DNA of 64,000 bases from Escherichia coli (GTDB taxonomy: Bacteria; Pseudomonadota; Gammaproteobacteria; Enterobacterales; Enterobacteriaceae): NCBI RefSeq assembly GCF_013122565.1, contig NZ_CP053258.1; one strand, given 5' to 3'. Under the pieces are notes generated by a model, which made no database searches, was not told the origin of the DNA, and saw only the letters and a program-made list of their open reading frames with translations. Positions 1,300 through 10,735 of the stretch are shown here, piece by piece. The translations under genes were made by a program, and so were the position numbers. Position 1 is the stretch's first letter; the number at the start of each line of letters is the position of its first letter.

Positions 1300-1548
1300 C
1301 TAAGAAATCACGGATTCCCTGTCATTAATAATGATATCCGTTAGTGTAGTCTTATGCATTTCAATGTACTGCAATATTTGCAGATAGAGATCAGAAAGAA
1401 TCACACTGGTTTCATCTTTTAAACGCAAGCGTAAAGCCTGATCAATAATATGACTATCAACATACCCATGCGTCATGAACACCTCCCTCTCGAGATTTTT
1501 AAACAAAGCACATTGAAAAATAAATCTCTCTGGGATTGAATTATTCAT
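1300..1548 (-). CDS. ymgC: Uncharacterized protein YmgC (last gene of the ycgZ-ymgA-ariR-ymgC operon)
   Basis: 82-aa ORF MNNSIPERFIFQCALFKNLEREVF...; position and size match ymgC. Confidence 0.85.
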   Translation of the reverse strand: MNNSIPERFIFQCALFKNLEREVFMTHGYVDSHIIDQALRLRLKDETSVILSDLYLQILQYIEMHKTTLTDIIINDRESVIS

Positions 1549-1660
1549 GTCAGCCTCGTAGAAATATTAACCCAATAAAATTATGCTGTGTATAGTCTAA
1601 AGCGACAGACAAAAATAAGATGAATGAGTTTTCTATAAACTTATACTTAATAATTAAAAG

Positions 1661-1927
1661 TTACATATCATCCGCTGTGTATCGCAACACGATTTCCAGT
1701 GTTTTTCTGATCACATCAGCTTTGAGAATATCACTTGTTGTTTCCAGGGAGTGTATCAGACTTAAGATAATATTTTTATTATTAACATTATCGCCTGAAA
1801 GCATTAAATTAGTCACAGCCTGCCCTAACACAGCTGACTCTTCTTCTAACAAATTACCCGAACTGCGAAAGTAACTTGATAACGCTTTATCAGCTATTGC
1901 ATTATGAATAGTAGTATCTTCAAGCAT
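1661..1927 (-). CDS. ariR: AriR (YmgB), regulator of acid resistance and biofilm
   Basis: 88-aa [91 protein letters not shown]. Confidence 0.9.
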
Positions 1928-1955
1928 AGTAACCTCTCATCTTACTTATGAAATT

Positions 1956-2228
1956 TTAATGTATTCTGTTTATTTTCTTACCATTGAAAATACTTTTATT
2001 GTCAGTTATCGCTGTTCTTCTGTTTGGCCCTCCTGTATCACTGTTGCTAAAATCACGAATTATACTGTCAATTAAATCTCGTCGGAAAGCATTTTCCTCA
2101 GCCGATTTCATTACGAGTAATTGCTTAATAAGAGTCTGCAACGAAAAATTTATCTTCATGCGCAGTATCTGGAGCACCGCCTGGCCAGTAATTTCATATT
2201 TTGTACTTTCATTATCAGATGTCTTCAT
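1956..2228 (-). CDS. ymgA: YmgA, Rcs-connector small protein
   Basis: 90-aa ORF MKTSDNESTKYEITGQAVLQILRMKINFSLQTLIKQLL...; in operon with ycgZ and ariR. Confidence 0.9.
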   Translation of the reverse strand: MKTSDNESTKYEITGQAVLQILRMKINFSLQTLIKQLLVMKSAEENAFRRDLIDSIIRDFSNSDTGGPNRRTAITDNKSIFNGKKINRIH

Positions 2229-2270
2229 AACGACTTCATAGCTAACCTGTTAAATAATCAGGCTGTTGCA

Positions 2271-2507
2271 TTATTCAAAAAGCAACCCAATTAGTGCATT
2301 ATAATGTTTCTGTTCCTCTTCCCCTGTCGCTTGTTCCAGTCGGCATAGAAGTTTGGCACAAAGCGACTTTCGACTCAGATTACGTCCATCTTTCAAAATC
2401 TCAGTCACAATTTCCCCGAGAGTTTCCTGCTGAGTAGGCAAGTTAGCTTTTGCAAAGTAACGAGTGATTGCTCCCGCAGAATCTAAAGTCACTGAATTTT
2501 GATGCAT
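2271..2507 (-). CDS. ycgZ: YcgZ, small regulatory protein
   Basis: 78-aa ORF MHQNSVTLDSAGAITRYFAKANLPTQQETLGEIVTEILKDGRNLSRKSL...; first gene of the operon, divergent from bluF. Confidence 0.9.
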   Translation of the reverse strand: MHQNSVTLDSAGAITRYFAKANLPTQQETLGEIVTEILKDGRNLSRKSLCAKLLCRLEQATGEEEQKHYNALIGLLFE

Positions 2508-2820
2508 GCTACGCCTCTGTTAAAAATGTTAATCAATGTTAAGTGAGGTAACAATAGCAAACTTGTACGAAATATGTGTACAGAATGATAAATTAATTTT
2601 TTGCATTTAGTGCTAATGCATATAAAACAACAAGTTATGATAAAAAGTATTGCATCATTTAAATGACAACCTATACAAGAATTTTCGCCAACTCATCTTT
2701 AACTTTTTCCATTTTTTATCAATGTAAAGAAACAGTTATGTTTTGGTATTAAAAGAAAGACACCGGAAGAGATGTCTGTTACCGTCTTACTCTCGCCTCT
2801 CCCATTACACTGGACAGTTA
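2508..2820. promoter_or_regulatory. Divergent AT-rich promoter region for ycgZ operon and bluF; TGTAC-containing imperfect inverted repeat at about 2563-2583
   Basis: 312-bp AT-rich spacer between divergent starts; motif cTTGTACgaaatatgtGTACAg seen 56-76 nt upstream of the ycgZ start. Confidence 0.4.
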
Positions 2821-4032
2821 ATGCTTACCACCCTTATTTATCGTAGCCATATACGTGACGACGAACCTGTCAAAAAAATCGAAGAAATGGTTTCGATAGC
2901 AAATCGCAGGAACATGCAGTCTGACGTAACAGGGATCTTACTGTTTAATGGTTCTCATTTTTTCCAGCTTCTGGAAGGTCCGGAAGAACAGGTTAAAATG
3001 ATATATCGGGCTATATGCCAGGATCCACGGCACTATAATATTGTTGAGCTGCTGTGCGATTACGCGCCTGCTCGCCGTTTTGGCAAAGCGGGAATGGAAT
3101 TATTTGATTTGCGCCTGCACGAGCGAGATGATGTTTTACAGGCCGTATTCGACAAAGGCACATCAAAATTTCAGCTAACTTATGATGACAGAGCGCTACA
3201 ATTTTTTCGTACTTTTGTCCTTGCAACCGAACAATCAACCTATTTCGAGATCCCTGCCGAAGACTCCTGGCTTTTTATCGCTGACGGATCTGATAAAGCA
3301 CTTGATTCCTGTACCCTTTCACCAAATATAAACGACCACTTTGCTTTTCATCCTATTGTCGATCCCTTATCGCGGCGGATAATCGCTTTTGAAGCCATTG
3401 TGCAAAAAAATGAAGATAGCCCATCAGCTATAGAGGTTGGGCAGCGTAAAGACGGGGAAATCTACAAAGCGGATCTCAAAAGTAAGGCGCTTGCATTCGC
3501 GATGGCACACGCACTTGAGCTCGGTGATAAAATGATTTCAATCAATCTATTACCTATGACCCTGGTTAACGAACCTGACGCAGTCTCTTTTTTACTTGAT
3601 GAAATAAAGGCCAATGCTCTGGTGCCTGAACAAATCATCGTTGAATTTGCTGAAAGTGAAGTCATATCTCGGTTTGATGAGTTTGCAGAAGCGATTAAAT
3701 CGCTAAAGGCTGCTGGTATCAGTGTAGCAATTGATCATTTTGGCGCAGGTTTTGCCGGTTTGTTACTCCTGTCACGCTTCCAGCCTGACAGAATTAAAAT
3801 CAGTCAGGAATTGATTACCAATGTTCATAAAAGCGGGCCACGGCAGGCAATTATTCAGGCGATCATAAAATGCTGTACATCACTTGAAATTCAAGTCAGT
3901 GCTATGGGCGTGGCAACACCAGAAGAGTGGATGTGGCTTGAATCCGCAGGAATTGAGATGTTTCAGGGAGATCTGTTTGCTAAAGCTAAATTGAATGGTA
4001 TCCCTTCCATAGCGTGGCCAGAGAAAAAATAA
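2821..4032 (+). CDS. bluF: Blue-light sensing BLUF-EAL protein BluF (YcgF), anti-repressor of BluR
   Basis: ORF track 2743-4032; conserved start taken at internal ATG 2821 (MLTTLIYRSHIRDDEPVKKIEEMVSIANRR...), giving 403 aa. Confidence 0.9.
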   Translation: MLTTLIYRSHIRDDEPVKKIEEMVSIANRRNMQSDVTGILLFNGSHFFQLLEGPEEQVKMIYRAICQDPRHYNIVELLCDYAPARRFGKAGMELFDLRLHERDDVLQAVFDKGTSKFQLTYDDRALQFFRTFVLATEQSTYFEIPAEDSWLFIADGSDKALDSCTLSPNINDHFAFHPIVDPLSRRIIAFEAIVQKNEDSPSAIEVGQRKDGEIYKADLKSKALAFAMAHALELGDKMISINLLPMTLVNEPDAVSFLLDEIKANALVPEQIIVEFAESEVISRFDEFAEAIKSLKAAGISVAIDHFGAGFAGLLLLSRFQPDRIKISQELITNVHKSGPRQAIIQAIIKCCTSLEIQVSAMGVATPEEWMWLESAGIEMFQGDLFAKAKLNGIPSIAWPEKK

Positions 4033-6717: not shown

Positions 6718-7041
6718 ATGAAGTGGATAGTAATTGACACGGTAATTCAACCTACATGCGGTATATCTTTTTCAGCCATATGGGGTGATATGAAAATGAT
6801 CGTCTGGTATCAATCTACTATATTTCTCCCTCCTGGCAGTATATTTAAACCGGTTAAATCTGGTATTATCTTTAAGGATAAAGAATACCCTATTACTATT
6901 TATAACATCGCACCATTCAACAAGGATTTATGGAGTTTACTCAAAAGCAGTCAAGAGTGTCCTCCAGGAGAAAGCAAAATAACAAATAAATGTTTTCATA
7001 ATAGTTGCATTATAAAAATATGCCCATATGGGCTCAAGTAA
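6718..7041 (+). CDS. iraM: Anti-adaptor protein IraM (stabilizes RpoS by inhibiting RssB)
   Basis: 107-aa [36 protein letters not shown]...ICPYGLK; size and sequence match IraM (YcgW). Confidence 0.85.
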
Positions 7042-7092
7042 AGGGTTTCATATAAATATGCTCGATATGCTATTAATAATACCTACATAAAT

Positions 7093-7121
7093 AAAAAAAC
7101 GGGCGTGTTATACGCCCGTTT
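7093..7121 (-). terminator. icd rho-independent terminator (9-bp perfect stem aaacgggcg/cgcccgttt followed by U-run on the minus strand)
   Basis: Located 23 nt downstream of the icd stop codon at 7144-7146. Confidence 0.7.
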
Positions 7122-7143
7122 CAATATTTAAAACATGGAGAGA

Positions 7144-8394
7144 TTACATGTTTTCGATGATCGCGTCACCAAACTCTGAACATTTGAGCAGCTTAGCGCC
7201 TTCCATCAGACGTTCGAAGTCATAAGTTACGGTCTTCGCGTTGATTGCGCCTTCCATACCTTTAACAATCAGGTCTGCGGCTTCAGTCCAGCCCATATGG
7301 CGTAACATCATCTCTGCGGAGAGAATAATAGAGCCTGGGTTAACTTTGTCCTGACCGGCATATTTCGGCGCAGTACCGTGGGTGGCTTCAAACAGGGCGC
7401 ATTCGTCACCGATGTTTGCGCCAGGGGCGATACCAATACCACCAACCTGCGCTGCCAGGGCGTCAGAAATGTAGTCACCGTTCAGGTTCATACAGGCGAT
7501 AACGTCGTATTCAGCCGGACGTAGCAGGATCTGTTGCAGGAACGCATCAGCGATCACGTCTTTAATGACGATCTCTTTGCCGGTGTTCGGGTTTTTAACT
7601 TTCAGCCACGGGCCGCCGTCGATCAGTTCACCGCCAAACTCTTCACGCGCCAGCTGGTAGCCCCAGTCTTTAAACGCGCCTTCGGTGAACTTCATGATGT
7701 TACCTTTGTGCACCAGGGTCACAGAGTCACGATCGTTAGCAATTGCGTATTCGATCGCTGCACGAACCAGACGTTTGGTGCCTTCTTCCGAACACGGCTT
7801 AATACCGATACCGCAATGTTCCGGGAAACGAATTTTCTTCACGCCCATCTCTTCACGCAGGAATTTAATCACTTTCTCGGCGTCGGCAGAGTCAGCTTTC
7901 CATTCGATACCCGCATAAATGTCTTCCGAGTTTTCACGGAAGATAACCATATCGGTCAGTTCAGGGTGTTTAACCGGGCTTGGAGTGCCCTGATAGTAAC
8001 GTACCGGACGCAGGCAGATGTAGAGATCCAGTTCCTGACGCAGGGCAACGTTCAGAGAGCGAATACCGCCACCTACTGGAGTGGTCAGCGGGCCTTTAAT
8101 GGCAACGCGATATTCACGAATCAGATCAAGGGTTTCAGCAGGCAGCCAGACATCCTGACCATAAACCTGTGTGGATTTTTCACCGGTGTAAATTTCCATC
8201 CAGGAGATTTTACGCTCGCCTTTATAGGCTTTCTCGACTGCAGCGTCGACCACTTTCAGCATGGCTGGGGTTACATCTACACCGATTCCATCACCTTCAA
8301 TGTAAGGGATAATCGGATTTTCAGGAACGTTGAGTTTGCCGTTTTGCAGGGTGATCTTCTTGCCTTGTGCCGGAACAACTACTTTACTTTCCAT
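7144..8394 (-). CDS. icd: Isocitrate dehydrogenase (NADP), intact
   Basis: 416-aa [49 protein letters not shown]...[13 protein letters not shown]; full length with the native C-terminus. Confidence 0.97.
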
Positions 8395-8565
8395 TCACCT
8401 CTCCTTCGAGCGCTACTGGTTTGCTCGTCTGCCACCACGTTGCATATGCGTTTGCGTCCTGCGATACGGATGCTTTAGAGCAATTTTTTGTTAATGATTT
8501 GTAATTGGCTTGTCAATACTACCCTATTGTTTGCCGTCATGAAAGATGCGCGTTATTAGGCTATA

Positions 8566-8712
8566 ATGCGGCAATTCATAATCTCTGAAAATACCATGCA
8601 AAAAACTTCTTTTAGACCAAAGACAGTATTTTCCCGACCTTCAAATAAAGTATTAAATATCAATTATTTACACCAGACTTTAAGCAATAAAAAAACCACC
8701 AGAGATAACTAA
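8566..8712 (+). pseudogene. Detached canonical rluE start: first 17 codons of RluE (MRQFIISENTMQKTSFR) fused to unrelated sequence, ending after 48 codons
   Basis: Translation of 8566-8712 gives MRQFIISENTMQKTSFRPKTVFSRPSNKVLNINYLHQTLSNKKTTRDN; the first 17 residues match the RluE N-terminus as I recall it for K-12; a TATAAT hexamer overlaps the ATG. Confidence 0.5.
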
Positions 8713-8854
8713 CAGGGTGCTATTTGGTCAAAATTTGACATTACTCGATTCAGCGACTAACTCACTTTGAGCACTATTGGGAAAATTATCAAAAGTCATG
8801 GTTGAAGCGACAAGCAACGAGTAAATTATGGCATCCACCCTTTTTGAGGTTCAC

Positions 8855-8947
8855 ATGAAACGCTTTGCACTGATAGCTGTGACACTCATTGCCTTTACTG
8901 GTTCTAGTTCTGCATCTGCTGCAACCGAAGAAATCAACTTCAAGTAA
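8855..8947 (+). CDS. Mini-ORF (30 aa) with a signal-peptide-like sequence: MKRFALIAVTLIAFTGSSSASAATEEINFK
   Basis: GAGG Shine-Dalgarno 5 nt upstream of ATG; hydrophobic core plus ASA-A cleavage-like motif; in the same frame as the next ORF but separated by TAA and TGA stops. Confidence 0.35.
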   Translation: MKRFALIAVTLIAFTGSSSASAATEEINFK

Positions 8948-8980
8948 CAGAAACACTATATAACAATGGAGTGTTGAAAA

Positions 8981-9430
8981 ATGGATACTACCGAAGAACG
9001 CAATGGAACATATTTCTACAGAGGACACCCGAACCTGTCCAAAATAGAACTACTCAACGTCATATTCCTTGAAGAATTCTGTAAGGAATTGGGGATTGAT
9101 TCGGTATCAGGTGCAGCAATCTTATCTGGTCAACCTTGGCTGGGTACAAGAGCGAAGCCGGAAGGGGCAACCCTGGGAACAAGTGTTGTCTCAAAGTATG
9201 CGCGTATACTGATGAGAGATGCACGCATGCCTTTTGGTATTTCTGTTCATACAACAGTGGGTGTAAGGATGCAGAAATCTAATAAGCTTGCTGCAATTAT
9301 CGCTCGTTGGGTCCCGTGGATTGGTTGGGCTTCACTGTCGATGAGTCTTTACAGGATTTCGACTCGTACCCAGGAAAAATACAATCTGATTGCCAAACCT
9401 CAAGACCGTATTAAGTGGACTTCCTTCTAA
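8981..9430 (+). CDS. Hypothetical protein (149 aa), unknown function, with a hydrophobic C-proximal segment; first gene of a two-gene overlapping module
   Basis: ORF MDTTEERNGTYFYRGHPNLSKIELLNVIFLEEFCKELG...LAAIIARWVPWIGWASLSMSLY...; its stop overlaps the start of the next ORF (TAATG); no family recognised. Confidence 0.6.
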   Translation: MDTTEERNGTYFYRGHPNLSKIELLNVIFLEEFCKELGIDSVSGAAILSGQPWLGTRAKPEGATLGTSVVSKYARILMRDARMPFGISVHTTVGVRMQKSNKLAAIIARWVPWIGWASLSMSLYRISTRTQEKYNLIAKPQDRIKWTSF

Positions 9431-9765
9431 TGGCGACAACAATCACAGACGAAGTTTTAGCACTGTTCCGTGATGAGATTCCAGGTTATCAGGATGATCA
9501 CGGGAAGGAAATTCCGTTAGAACTGGACTCTGATTTGTTCGACTATCCACGAGATGATTTAGAGGACGCTATACGGAAATACAAAGAGAGGTTTGGGATT
9601 AACCTGGATAATCTGGAATGGTCTTTGTACCTTCCGTGGGAGTCTGCACCATTGCTTCAACGATGGTTCAAGCTCAAGCGGGAAGAGGTAGAAACAACAC
9701 GTTTACCGTTAACTGTACGGATGTTTGCAGAATCAGCAGAAGCGGGAAAATGGCTGTATCAGTAG
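9430..9765 (+). CDS. Hypothetical small acidic protein (about 111 aa); possible immunity or antitoxin-like partner of the upstream ORF
   Basis: ORF track 9415-9765; likely start at ATG 9430 overlapping the upstream stop; sequence MATTITDEVLALFRDEIPGYQDDHGKEIPLELDSDLFDYPRDDLEDAIRKYKERFGINL... is rich in Asp/Glu. Confidence 0.6.
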   Translation: MATTITDEVLALFRDEIPGYQDDHGKEIPLELDSDLFDYPRDDLEDAIRKYKERFGINLDNLEWSLYLPWESAPLLQRWFKLKREEVETTRLPLTVRMFAESAEAGKWLYQ

Positions 9766-9772
9766 AATAAAA

Positions 9773-9795
9773 AAGAAGGCTGCGATGCCCTTCTT
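9773..9795 (+). terminator. Candidate stem-loop terminator after the two-gene module
   Basis: aagaagg-ctgcgatgc-ccttctt hairpin 8 nt after the stop codon; the U-tract is weak. Confidence 0.35.
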
Positions 9796-10096
9796 ATTAC
9801 TGCTGATGATGGTAGTGGTAAAGCATCATCCTGAACTTAAACAGTGAAGTGCTGTCACCCATCAGTAATACAGAAACACTATTTTCATACCAGTATTTAT
9901 TCAATTCATCAATGTAAAATGTGTTCATTGGGCCATATTTATCACCATGCAGCCACACAACCGCTGCTCACTAACCCAGGTATTGATGAAACCGCGCTGA
10001 AGAGCCTGAACCCTGAACCTCTAACGAGTACCTTCAAAGTCCAATGCAATCCGACACTGTGCTAACCTCTGCGTATAGCTCTATTTGGAATTTACC

Positions 10097-10735
10097 ATGA
10101 AATACTTTAGCGATTCTAAATCTTCTTTTAGAAAAAAACAGGTTAGTCGACTAAACTCGCAACACACCACTAAGCGTAAACCTGAAAACCAGCCCACGCG
10201 TGTGATCCTGTTCAATAAACCCTACGATGTTCTTCCGCAGTTTACCGATGAAGCCGGGCGCAAAACATTAAAAGAATTCATCCCGGTTCAGGGCGTTTAT
10301 GCAGCAGGTCGTCTTGACCGCGATAGCGAAGGGTTACTGGTGCTGACCAATAACGGCGCGTTGCAGGCGCGTTTAACCCAGCCGGGCAAACGCACCGGAA
10401 AAATCTATTATGTGCAGGTGGAAGGTATTCCCACACAAGACGCACTTGAAGCCTTGCGCAATGGCGTAACCTTAAATGATGGCCCTACCCTGCCCGCAGG
10501 CGCGGAGCTGGTTGAAGAACCCGCGTGGTTATGGCCGCGGAATCCACCAATTCGTGAACGCAAAAGTATTCCCACCAGCTGGCTGAAGATCACCTTATAT
10601 GAAGGACGTAATCGCCAGGTGCGCCGCATGACCGCCCATGTTGGTTTCCCCACGCTGCGACTAATTCGCTATGCGATGGGTGATTACTCTTTGGATAATC
10701 TTGCCAATGGCGAATGGCGAGAAGTGACAGATTAA
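10097..10735 (+). CDS. rluE: 23S rRNA pseudouridine synthase RluE with a variant N-terminus
   Basis: ORF track 10085-10735 (TTG); likely ATG at 10097; from [23 protein letters not shown] onward matches RluE, but the first ~30 residues ([26 protein letters not shown]) differ from the canonical N-terminus encoded at 8566. Confidence 0.88.

What the first reader, a model, noticed from the sequence alone, without database searches (positions are those of the whole stretch)
8981..9765. Translationally coupled two-gene module of unknown function (149-aa protein plus 111-aa acidic partner)
The two ORFs overlap by one base (TAATG), which indicates co-translation. The first product has a hydrophobic, Trp-rich C-proximal segment (LAAIIARWVPWIGWASLSMSLY). 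The second is strongly acidic (DEIPGYQDDHGKEIPLELDSDLFDYPRDDLED). A larger protein followed by a small acidic partner is typical of toxin-immunity or toxin-antitoxin and abortive-infection pairs, and the module sits in an apparently acquired islet. I could not assign either protein to a family from sequence alone.
Basis: inference. Interest (0 to 1): 0.7.

Follow-up and report, generated by a model that had tools for sequence, protein, structure and literature searches.

The report
Orphan secretion-system toxin with immunity partner
The two overlapping genes are a free-standing copy of a bacterial-warfare toxin and its protective immunity protein; elsewhere the same toxin sits at the tip of Rhs toxins or right behind a type VI secretion tube gene, so the kind of system is familiar, but how the toxin kills is unknown.

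Summary
ORF1 (8981-9430, 149 aa, pI 9.9) and ORF2 (9430-9765, 111 aa, pI 4.5) overlap in TAATG. They lie in a 1.5-kb islet between icd and rluE that 374 of 5,426 complete E. coli genomes carry.

Both proteins can be assigned. ORF1 is an STM2901-family protein (NCBIfam NF045926 = Pfam DUF8209). ORF2 is DUF1493, with an acyl-carrier-protein-like fold but no conserved prosthetic-group serine.

Comparative evidence makes this a polymorphic toxin-immunity cassette:
- The ORF1 domain forms the extreme C-terminus of longer proteins; 8 of 10 tested carry an Rhs core just upstream.
- In 53 Enterobacterales loci the stand-alone toxin is followed almost always by an overlapping DUF1493 gene.
- In 25 of 49 loci an hcp (type VI secretion tube) gene lies directly upstream, as it does in 3 of 3 more distant representatives.
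- Toxin and immunity co-diverge (r = 0.90), and both are under purifying selection.

The E. coli copy has no hcp next to it, so it is an orphan effector-immunity pair. The toxin's fold and target are unknown, and no toxicity was tested here. A classical toxin-antitoxin or anti-phage role is less likely but not excluded. This is a new member of a known kind, of moderate interest.

The parts
8617..10132 (.). Accessory islet of about 1.5 kb between icd and rluE, absent from K-12
   Evidence: blastn against K-12: homology ends at 8616 and resumes at 10118, with a 15-bp ambiguous overlap. G+C is 42% against 46% in the flanks. Present in 374 of 5,426 E. coli genomes.
8606..8616 (+). Left copy of the 11-bp direct repeat CTTCTTTTAGA that bounds the islet
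   Evidence: Only two copies in the whole 64-kb window, one at each junction.
10122..10132 (+). Right copy of the 11-bp direct repeat CTTCTTTTAGA
8968..8971 (+). GGAG, candidate ribosome-binding site for ORF1
   Evidence: Read from the sequence; 9 nt before the ATG at 8981.
8981..9430 (+). ORF1: predicted toxin/effector, STM2901 family (Pfam DUF8209), 149 aa, 16.8 kDa, pI 9.9
   Evidence: NF045926 scores 156.8 bits against a cut-off of 110. Homologues carry PF26636 = DUF8209. The domain ends Rhs proteins. hcp lies upstream in homologous loci. dN/dS across genera is about 0.06.
9428..9432 (+). TAATG stop/start overlap (translational coupling)
   Evidence: The same 1-nt or 7-nt overlap recurs in homologous loci.
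9430..9765 (+). ORF2: predicted cognate immunity protein, DUF1493, 111 aa, pI 4.5, acyl-carrier-protein-like fold
9776..9791 (.). G+C-rich hairpin just after ORF2, terminator-like
   Evidence: The consensus scan reports it on the minus strand; on the plus strand it is followed only by a weak T-run. It is a consensus match, not evidence of function.

Best explanation
The module is a free-standing polymorphic-toxin cassette. ORF1 is a small basic toxin domain (STM2901 family, DUF8209). ORF2 is its cognate cytoplasmic immunity protein (DUF1493, acyl-carrier-protein-like fold, acidic), which most likely neutralises the toxin by binding it one-to-one.

The E. coli pair belongs to a lineage whose usual form is a three-gene mini-islet, hcp-toxin-immunity. 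In that form the 17-kDa toxin would ride inside the ring of its dedicated Hcp and be fired by a type VI secretion system into neighbouring bacteria. Sister cells survive because they make the immunity protein. The same toxin domain is delivered in other phyla as the C-terminal tip of Rhs proteins.

In this E. coli the cassette sits alone, without hcp, in a 1.5-kb islet between icd and rluE. It is therefore an orphan effector-immunity pair. Either a resident Hcp exports the toxin, or the pair is kept mainly for the immunity it gives against neighbours armed with this toxin, with tight translational coupling keeping the toxin harmless.

Shown here: family membership, obligatory pairing, hcp and Rhs linkage in homologues, co-divergence, purifying selection, and the islet's status. 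Inferred: toxicity, neutralisation by binding, a cytoplasmic site of action (the immunity has no export signal), and the route of delivery. The biochemical target is unknown.
For: 1. The toxin position in Rhs proteins. A full HMMER search found 368 relatives. In all 31 proteins longer than 200 aa among the best 150, the domain ends within about 10 residues of the C-terminus. Eight of 10 tested carry the Rhs-associated core (TIGR03696) upstream of it.
2. The next gene in those distant loci is DUF1493 in 4 of 5 cases, twice in L058.
3. In 53 Enterobacterales loci essentially every stand-alone toxin is followed by an overlapping DUF1493 gene.
4. hcp/tssD (TIGR03344, 135-148 bits, cut-off 58.9) lies immediately upstream and co-oriented in 25 of 49 loci. 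Seven more loci have an hcp within 6 kb. Three of 3 more distant stand-alone representatives show T6SS_HCP -> DUF8209 -> downstream gene; that gene is recorded as DUF1493 in 2 of them.
5. In 48 pairs the toxin is basic (median pI 9.8) and the immunity acidic (4.7). Their pairwise identities co-vary (r = 0.90), and the immunity diverges faster.
6. Both genes are under purifying selection across genera (omega about 0.06 and 0.10).
7. At 16.8 kDa the toxin is close in size to Tse2, a 158-aa Hcp-carried effector (own knowledge, Silverman et al. 2013; see also PMC8262886).
8. Some loci hold arrays with toxin fragments, extra immunity genes and several hcp copies (L034, L035), as is typical of polymorphic-toxin loci.
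9. In E. coli one identical immunity protein (WP_000246191.1) is annotated in three strains whose toxin alleles differ or are cut by an insertion sequence.
Against: - No toxicity, neutralisation or secretion experiment exists for any family member in the literature I could search.
- There is no hcp next to the E. coli pair, or anywhere in the 64-kb window. The syntenic region of strain PT62 holds only core genes.
- The pair also occurs with no type VI gene nearby: on 153 plasmid records and in a P2-like phage. It can therefore persist without linked delivery genes.
- The toxin model is of modest confidence (pLDDT 68) and matches no known toxin fold.
- The superfamily has no invariant acidic or histidine residue that would point to an enzyme.
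- I did not check whether islet-bearing E. coli strains have a type VI secretion system.
Confidence: 0.75

Rival explanations
1. An autonomous intracellular toxin-antitoxin or abortive-infection module. ORF1 is a growth-arresting toxin held in check by ORF2. The pair stabilises the islet, plasmid or prophage that carries it, or kills the cell on phage infection, with no export involved.
For: The two genes are translationally coupled, with a basic toxin and an acidic partner. The pair stands alone in this E. coli islet. It also lies in accessory or maintenance regions of 153 plasmid records, 54 of them conjugative. In the P2-like Erwinia phage EtG it sits between the tail-fibre assembly and sheath genes, the site where P2 carries its non-essential fun(Z) gene (own knowledge).
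Against: No PADLOC defence model matches either protein. ORF2 has an acyl-carrier-protein-like fold, and nothing in it resembled a DNA-binding antitoxin. The commonest neighbour is hcp, and the domain ends Rhs proteins, which is the signature of exported toxins. Flanks are housekeeping genes, not defence islands.
Confidence: 0.12
2. A decaying remnant. Only the immunity gene is still useful, as an orphan immunity against neighbours' toxins. The E. coli ORF1 is an inactive or never-exported relic that survives because ORF2 depends on its translation.
For: The hcp gene is missing. Within Escherichia the few substitutions in ORF1 are mostly non-synonymous (3 non-synonymous against 0-1 synonymous between E. 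coli alleles; 8 against 3 versus Escherichia sp. E1V33). The window allele has T92 where other E. coli alleles and most close homologues have Pro. Insertion sequences lie in or beside the toxin gene in IAI39 and CUWW06, while the immunity protein of IAI39 is identical to that of PT62 and CFSAN061768.
Against: 371 of 374 islet-bearing genomes match at least 80% of the pair, and 342 are at least 99% identical. Every column that is invariant in the family alignment is intact in the window protein, which is itself part of that alignment. The substitution counts are too small to be significant.
Confidence: 0.1
3. ORF1 is not a toxin at all. It is a small membrane or 'phage membrane' protein, as some automatic annotations say, or an accessory factor of Hcp, and ORF2 is its partner or chaperone.
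For: AlphaFold-database relatives are auto-labelled 'membrane protein' or 'phage membrane protein'. There is a hydrophobic C-proximal helix at 103-125.
Against: Hydrophobicity is below the usual transmembrane threshold in most members (maximum 1.24 here; family medians 1.36-1.44). The domain occupies the toxin slot after the Rhs core, with its own downstream partner gene. Co-divergence with a fast-evolving partner fits a toxin-immunity specificity pair.
Confidence: 0.03

Closest known systems
Rhs C-terminal toxin / RhsI immunity cassettes (polymorphic toxin systems; e.g. E. coli and Dickeya Rhs-CT/RhsI, Serratia Rhs effectors)
   Same: The ORF1 domain is found at the extreme C-terminus of proteins, directly after the Rhs-associated core in 8 of 10 tested. 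A small immunity gene follows, often overlapping, and loci contain arrays.
   Different: The E. coli protein has no Rhs shell, no PAAR and no pre-toxin region. It starts eight residues before the toxin domain, with a conserved MDTTEE. The toxin domain (DUF8209) has no assigned activity.
Hcp-carried type VI cargo effectors with cytoplasmic immunity, e.g. Pseudomonas aeruginosa Tse2-Tsi2 (own knowledge; Hcp-driven delivery reviewed in PMC8262886)
   Same: A small toxin (149 aa; Tse2 is 158 aa) and a small acidic cytoplasmic immunity protein encoded directly downstream. Homologues are linked to a dedicated hcp gene. The killing mechanism is unknown.
   Different: There is no sequence or detectable fold similarity. 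The hcp-toxin-immunity units are mini-islets among housekeeping genes rather than parts of a main T6SS cluster. The E. coli copy lacks hcp.
Hcp-ET 'evolved Hcp' effectors and orphan hcp islands of E. coli (Ma et al. 2017, cited in PMC11148199; bioRxiv 10.1101/2021.10.07.463556)
   Same: An orphan hcp plus toxin plus immunity, placed outside the main T6SS cluster.
   Different: In those effectors the toxin is fused to Hcp. Here it is a separate gene that starts about 12 nt after hcp. No Hcp-DUF8209 fusion appeared among the best 150 relatives. T6EC4 of PMC11148199 is a Tox-REase-5-like nuclease, not this family.
Salmonella Typhimurium STM2901-STM2902 (namesake genes at the edge of SPI-1)
   Same: ORF1 passes the NCBIfam model named after STM2901. 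The Salmonella genes are adjacent and variably present among serovars (PMC3680342).
   Different: They lie at another chromosomal site. The papers I found that describe them call them only 'putative cytoplasmic proteins', with no function tested.
Type II toxin-antitoxin modules
   Same: A two-gene, translationally coupled operon with a basic toxin and an acidic neutraliser, found on plasmids and a prophage.
   Different: The toxin gene comes first. The partner has an acyl-carrier-protein fold rather than a recognisable DNA-binding fold. The toxin is in no known TA family. Homologues are linked to hcp and Rhs.

Membership tests
STM2901 family (NCBIfam NF045926) = Pfam PF26636 DUF8209 | Whole-protein score above the curated cut-off of 110 bits | tested here: met
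   156.8 bits, covering residues 8-142. Precomputed PF26636 is recorded on 60 of the 61 word-search homologues, and its name, DUF8209, appears.
DUF1493 (Pfam PF07377) | Significant full-length match to the Pfam model | tested here: met
   E 1.8e-29, residues 4-110 of 111 against model positions 3-107 of 108.
Polymorphic toxin-immunity cassette (Rhs-CT type) | The toxin domain occupies the extreme C-terminus of Rhs/YD proteins, after the Rhs-associated core | tested here: met
   This holds for homologues: 31 of 31 proteins over 200 aa end with the domain, and TIGR03696 lies upstream in 8 of 10. The window protein itself has no Rhs part.
Polymorphic toxin-immunity cassette (Rhs-CT type) | A cognate immunity gene lies immediately downstream and co-varies with the toxin | tested here: met
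   DUF1493 is downstream in nearly all of 53 loci and in 4 of 5 distant long-protein (mostly Rhs-type) loci. Identity correlation r = 0.90.
Polymorphic toxin-immunity cassette (Rhs-CT type) | The toxin kills or arrests cells, and the immunity protein specifically neutralises it | not testable with these tools
   Needs expression and competition experiments. No published test was found.
Type VI secretion Hcp-cargo effector | Genetic linkage to an hcp/tssD gene | tested here: inconclusive
   Met for homologues: 25 of 49 loci have hcp directly upstream, 7 more have one nearby, and so do 3 of 3 distant representatives. Not met in the window: tblastn found no hcp.
Type VI secretion Hcp-cargo effector | Small enough to be carried inside the Hcp ring (known Hcp-carried effectors such as Tse2 are about 150-160 aa; own knowledge) | tested here: met
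   149 aa, 16.8 kDa.
Type VI secretion Hcp-cargo effector | Hcp binding and T6SS-dependent export, and a T6SS present in the host strain | not tested
   There are no T6SS genes in the window, nor in the syntenic PT62 region. The rest of the genome is not available.
Type II toxin-antitoxin system | An antitoxin with a DNA-binding domain, and a toxin from a known TA superfamily | tested here: not met
   ORF2 has an acyl-carrier-protein-like fold. ORF1 matches no TA family in Pfam, NCBIfam or PADLOC.
Known anti-phage defence systems (PADLOC-DB 2.0) | A match to a defence-system protein model | tested here: not met
   No match for either protein at E up to 1.
Acyl carrier protein (for ORF2) | The ACP helical-bundle fold | tested here: met
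Acyl carrier protein (for ORF2) | A conserved serine that carries phosphopantetheine at the start of helix II | tested here: not met
   The aligned position is R, G, A or S, followed by D or E, across the family. No serine is conserved.

The most novel reading that the evidence does not exclude
DUF8209 is a new class of cytoplasm-acting antibacterial toxin with a new fold and no classical catalytic residues. Its immunity protein neutralises it by mimicking acyl carrier protein. On that reading the toxin's real target is AcpP or an ACP-dependent step of lipid synthesis, or else the toxin acts through its conserved C-terminal helix on the inner membrane. The hcp-less E. coli copy would then work as an export-independent addiction or exclusion module.
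Probability: 0.12. Interest if true: 0.75.

Novelty: new member of a known kind. Interest (0 to 1): 0.45.

Why it matters
If the reading is right, two widespread families of unknown function gain a role: DUF8209 (STM2901 family) as an interbacterial toxin and DUF1493 as its immunity protein. That includes the Salmonella genes next to SPI-1, many plasmid-borne copies in Serratia and Pantoea, and a P2-like phage moron.

It also defines a compact hcp-toxin-immunity mini-islet that recurs in Enterobacterales and was seen in three more distant representatives. It flags a toxin with no recognisable fold or catalytic motif, neutralised by an acyl-carrier-protein look-alike. That combination is cheap to test (toxicity, rescue, Hcp binding) and could reveal a new killing mechanism.

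For E. coli it marks a strain-variable competition or immunity determinant carried by about 7% of complete genomes.

Tried and rejected
- PADLOC: no hit for either protein.
- PHROGs: hits only to families of unknown function.
- Pfam in the tool's library: nothing for ORF1 apart from a chance KELAA match.
- Protein Data Bank sequence searches with family profiles: nothing significant for either protein, only a weak acyl-carrier-protein hit at E 0.5 for DUF1493.
- Foldseek against AFDB50: returned only family members.
- Pfam on the N-terminal parts of the long homologues: largely blank. NCBIfam TIGR03696 was needed to see the Rhs core.
- The 98%-identical 'phage' hit (vB_EcoM-689R6) is an e14-like prophage record that includes host DNA from icd to hflD, so it is not evidence for phage carriage.
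- T6EC4 of PMC11148199, an Hcp fusion from Citrobacter koseri, was checked as a possible published relative. It is a Tox-REase-5-like nuclease and unrelated.
- The 131-aa gene after the Rhs protein P0292 could not be shown to be DUF1493 (hhalign probability 2%).
- A transmembrane reading of the Trp-rich segment was rejected as unproven (Kyte-Doolittle 1.24).
- An ADP-ribosyltransferase-like reading of the YFYRG and GTSxxS motifs was considered and dropped, because the Arg is not conserved.
- The promoter scan found no convincing promoter inside the islet. The only plus-strand hit (8539-8567) is the old rluE promoter region outside it.
- The first dN/dS script timed out and was rewritten.

Full report
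**1. The observation**

The window is E. coli chromosome. The gene order is bluF, bluR, ycgX, an ariR-like gene, iraM, icd (7144-8394, minus strand), then the module, then rluE, nudJ, mnmA, hflD, purB and phoP.

The stop TAA and the start ATG share one base, TAATG. Both quoted peptide segments are present. ORF1 is basic (pI 9.88, 16.8 kDa) and ORF2 is acidic (pI 4.51).

The islet is real. K-12 has only 171 bp between rluE and icd. The window has about 1.5 kb of extra DNA (8617-10132), with 42% G+C against 46% in the flanks. It is bounded by the only two copies of CTTCTTTTAGA in the window, at 8606-8616 and 10122-10132. Of 5,426 complete E. coli genomes, 374 carry the pair. In 371 at least 80% of the pair is matched, and 342 are at least 99% identical. 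RefSeq annotates the two genes as 'STM2901 family protein' and 'DUF1493 family protein'.

**2. Family assignment**

ORF1 passes NCBIfam NF045926 (STM2901 family) with 156.8 bits against a cut-off of 110. Its homologues carry Pfam PF26636, named DUF8209. ORF2 is Pfam DUF1493 (E 1.8e-29).

Neither protein matches any PADLOC defence model. The PHROG matches are to families of unknown function.

I found no paper that assigns a function to STM2901, STM2902, DUF1493 or DUF8209. The Salmonella genes are described only as 'putative cytoplasmic proteins' that are variably present beside SPI-1 (PMC3680342, PMC7232297).

**3. What the relatives show**

*The ORF1 domain occupies the toxin slot of Rhs proteins.*
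- A search of 1.84 billion representative proteins with a family profile gave 368 hits.
- Among the best 150, all 31 proteins longer than 200 aa carry the domain at their very C-terminus. Examples are 411-545 of 548 aa, 304-435 of 437 aa and 504-604 of 612 aa.
- Their sequences show the end of the Rhs core (for example YDPxxGRF...DPxGL) some 100-190 residues upstream.
- NCBIfam TIGR03696, the RHS repeat-associated core, is found upstream of the domain in 8 of 10 tested.
- AlphaFold-database relatives include Rhs proteins of Flavobacterium and other Bacteroidota.
- A few carriers instead have lipoprotein-like or otherwise unassigned N-termini (P0253, P0222).

*The partner is always DUF1493.*
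- In 4 of 5 such distant loci the next gene is DUF1493, and L058 has two copies. The fifth could not be assigned.
- In 53 loci from different Enterobacterales species, essentially every stand-alone toxin gene is followed by a DUF1493 gene. The overlap is 1 nt or 7 nt, even in subgroups that are only 38-46% identical to ORF1.

*The recurrent third gene is hcp.*
- In 25 of 49 loci with upstream sequence, a 160-aa gene ends about 12 nt before the toxin start. It is the type VI secretion tube protein Hcp/TssD (TIGR03344, 135-148 bits, cut-off 58.9).
- Seven more loci have an hcp within 6 kb.
- Three of 3 more distant stand-alone representatives show T6SS_HCP, then DUF8209, then a downstream gene. 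That gene is recorded as DUF1493 in two of them.
- The next genes outward are housekeeping genes (MFS/YajR, UbiA, MutS, LptFG). No other T6SS family appears in the top of the Pfam list. These are therefore two- or three-gene mini-islets, not parts of main T6SS clusters.
- Some loci (L034, L035) hold several cassettes, toxin fragments, extra immunity genes and several hcp copies.

*Evolutionary behaviour.*
- In 48 pairs the toxin is always basic (median pI 9.8) and the partner usually acidic (median 4.7).
- Pairwise identities of toxins and partners co-vary (Pearson 0.90), and the partner diverges faster. For example, 43% toxin identity goes with 31% partner identity.
- Across genera dN/dS is about 0.06 for the toxin and 0.10 for the partner.

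**4. Structures**

The Trp-rich segment scores below the usual transmembrane threshold (Kyte-Doolittle 1.24; family medians 1.36-1.44). Residues conserved across the superfamily are Gly, Ser, Thr, Pro and Arg (the GTSxxSK stretch, R109, P112), with no invariant Asp, Glu or His. The mechanism of toxicity therefore cannot be read from the sequence.

**5. Best explanation**

The module is a free-standing polymorphic-toxin cassette: the DUF8209 toxin plus its DUF1493 immunity protein. It comes from a lineage that normally travels as hcp-toxin-immunity.

In that form the toxin would be loaded into its dedicated Hcp ring and injected by a type VI secretion system into competitors. Its size fits: Hcp-carried effectors such as Tse2 are about 150-160 aa (own knowledge; Hcp-driven delivery is reviewed in PMC8262886). 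Kin cells would be protected by the immunity protein.

The closest relatives of the E. coli toxin, 64-87% identical, mostly have the hcp. The E. coli islet does not: tblastn with Hcp found nothing in the window, and the syntenic region of strain PT62 is all core genes. The E. coli pair is thus an orphan effector-immunity pair.

Whether a resident Hcp exports the toxin, or the pair is retained mainly for immunity or as a selfish unit, is open.

One hint comes from three E. coli strains, which share one identical immunity protein (WP_000246191.1) while their toxin alleles differ. In IAI39 the toxin gene is split by an IS3-family element, and in CUWW06 an IS2 lies in the region. The few substitutions within Escherichia are mostly non-synonymous, and the window allele has T92 where its relatives have Pro. 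These numbers are too small to be significant.

**6. Rivals**

An autonomous toxin-antitoxin or abortive-infection role is the main rival. The pair occurs on 153 plasmid records (Serratia 63, Pantoea 54), in accessory regions near par, umuDC and recombinase genes. It also occurs in the P2-like Erwinia phage EtG, between the tail-fibre assembly and sheath genes. That is the site where P2 carries its non-essential fun(Z) gene (own knowledge). This shows the cassette can live without linked delivery genes. It does not outweigh the hcp and Rhs linkage, the lack of any defence-model match, or the absence of any recognisable antitoxin DNA-binding fold in the partner.

'Membrane protein' and 'phage membrane protein' labels in automatic annotation rest on the hydrophobic helix alone.

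**7. Comparison with known systems, and novelty**

In kind, this is a type VI/Rhs polymorphic toxin-immunity pair. It works like the Rhs-CT/RhsI cassettes and like Hcp-carried effectors such as Tse2-Tsi2. It resembles the orphan hcp islands of E. coli, except that the toxin is a separate gene rather than fused to Hcp.

Membership of the STM2901 and DUF1493 families was tested and met. Membership of type II toxin-antitoxin systems, of known defence systems and of true acyl carrier proteins was tested and not met. T6SS-dependent export and toxicity could not be tested.

I found no publication linking these two families to Rhs, Hcp or toxin-immunity function. Within the searchable literature the functional assignment therefore appears new, but the type of system is well known. 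Interest is moderate. The interesting residue is an uncharacterised toxin fold neutralised by an acyl-carrier-protein look-alike.

Noticed in passing
window 8566-8712 and 10085-10135: The islet junction lies inside what K-12 annotates as the 5' end of rluE. A 48-codon remnant ORF at 8566-8712 begins with K-12 RluE's N-terminus, MRQFIISENTMQKTSFR. The intact rluE of this strain starts inside the islet (ATG 10097, [15 protein letters not shown]...). RluE therefore has a different N-terminus, and presumably a different promoter, in islet-bearing strains.
   Followed up: partly
window 8855-8947 (+): A 30-codon ORF with a GAGG ribosome-binding site encodes MKRFALIAVTLIAFTGSSSASAATEEINFK, a signal-peptide-like sequence followed by only 8 residues. 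It lies inside the islet, upstream of the toxin gene. It may be a truncated periplasmic-protein gene or a small exported peptide. NCBIfam gave only a chance-level hit to the SodC signal peptide.
   Followed up: partly
window 6718-8394; L061 (ON470584.1): There is no e14-type prophage at the 3' end of icd in this window, unlike K-12. The 'phage' record vB_EcoM-689R6 is such a prophage: integrase and excisionase lie next to icd. It was deposited together with host DNA from icd to hflD, including the toxin-immunity pair.
   Followed up: yes
L067 (Erwinia phage EtG, NC_047833.1) 3001-3761: A genuine P2-like phage carries an STM2901-family gene (148 bits) overlapping a DUF1493 gene. The pair lies on the opposite strand, between the tail-fibre assembly and tail-sheath genes, a classical moron position.
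   Followed up: partly
L034 and L035 (Mangrovibacter), whole loci: Multi-cassette clusters: two or more toxin-immunity pairs, frameshifted toxin fragments followed by intact immunity genes, and two or three hcp copies on both strands. This suggests cassette turnover like that of other polymorphic-toxin loci.
   Followed up: partly
L066 (E. coli IAI39) 1332-3429; H5 (strain CUWW06): The toxin gene is split by an IS3-family element in IAI39, and an IS2 lies in the region in CUWW06. The IAI39 immunity protein is identical (WP_000246191.1) to that of PT62 and CFSAN061768.
   Followed up: partly
L062 (Serratia marcescens plasmid NZ_CP018916.1) 4340-5788: On Serratia plasmids a DUF2913-family gene, not hcp, ends 25 nt before the toxin gene. 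This may be a different three-gene arrangement. Its role is unknown (no NCBIfam hit).
   Followed up: no
proteins P0253, P0222, P0207, P0209, P0229 (metagenomic, probably Bacteroidota): These DUF8209 carriers have no Rhs core. One (P0253) has a lipoprotein-type signal, the linkers are Cys-rich, and there is a Cys at or within a few residues of the C-terminus. They may represent a different delivery route for the same toxin; the one locus looked up (P0253, L059) has DUF1493 downstream.
   Followed up: no
protein P0059 (153 aa): A single ORF joins the N-terminal two-thirds of an STM2901-family toxin to the C-terminal end of DUF1493, and both Pfam families are recorded on it. It is probably a deletion that fused the two genes.
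   Followed up: no
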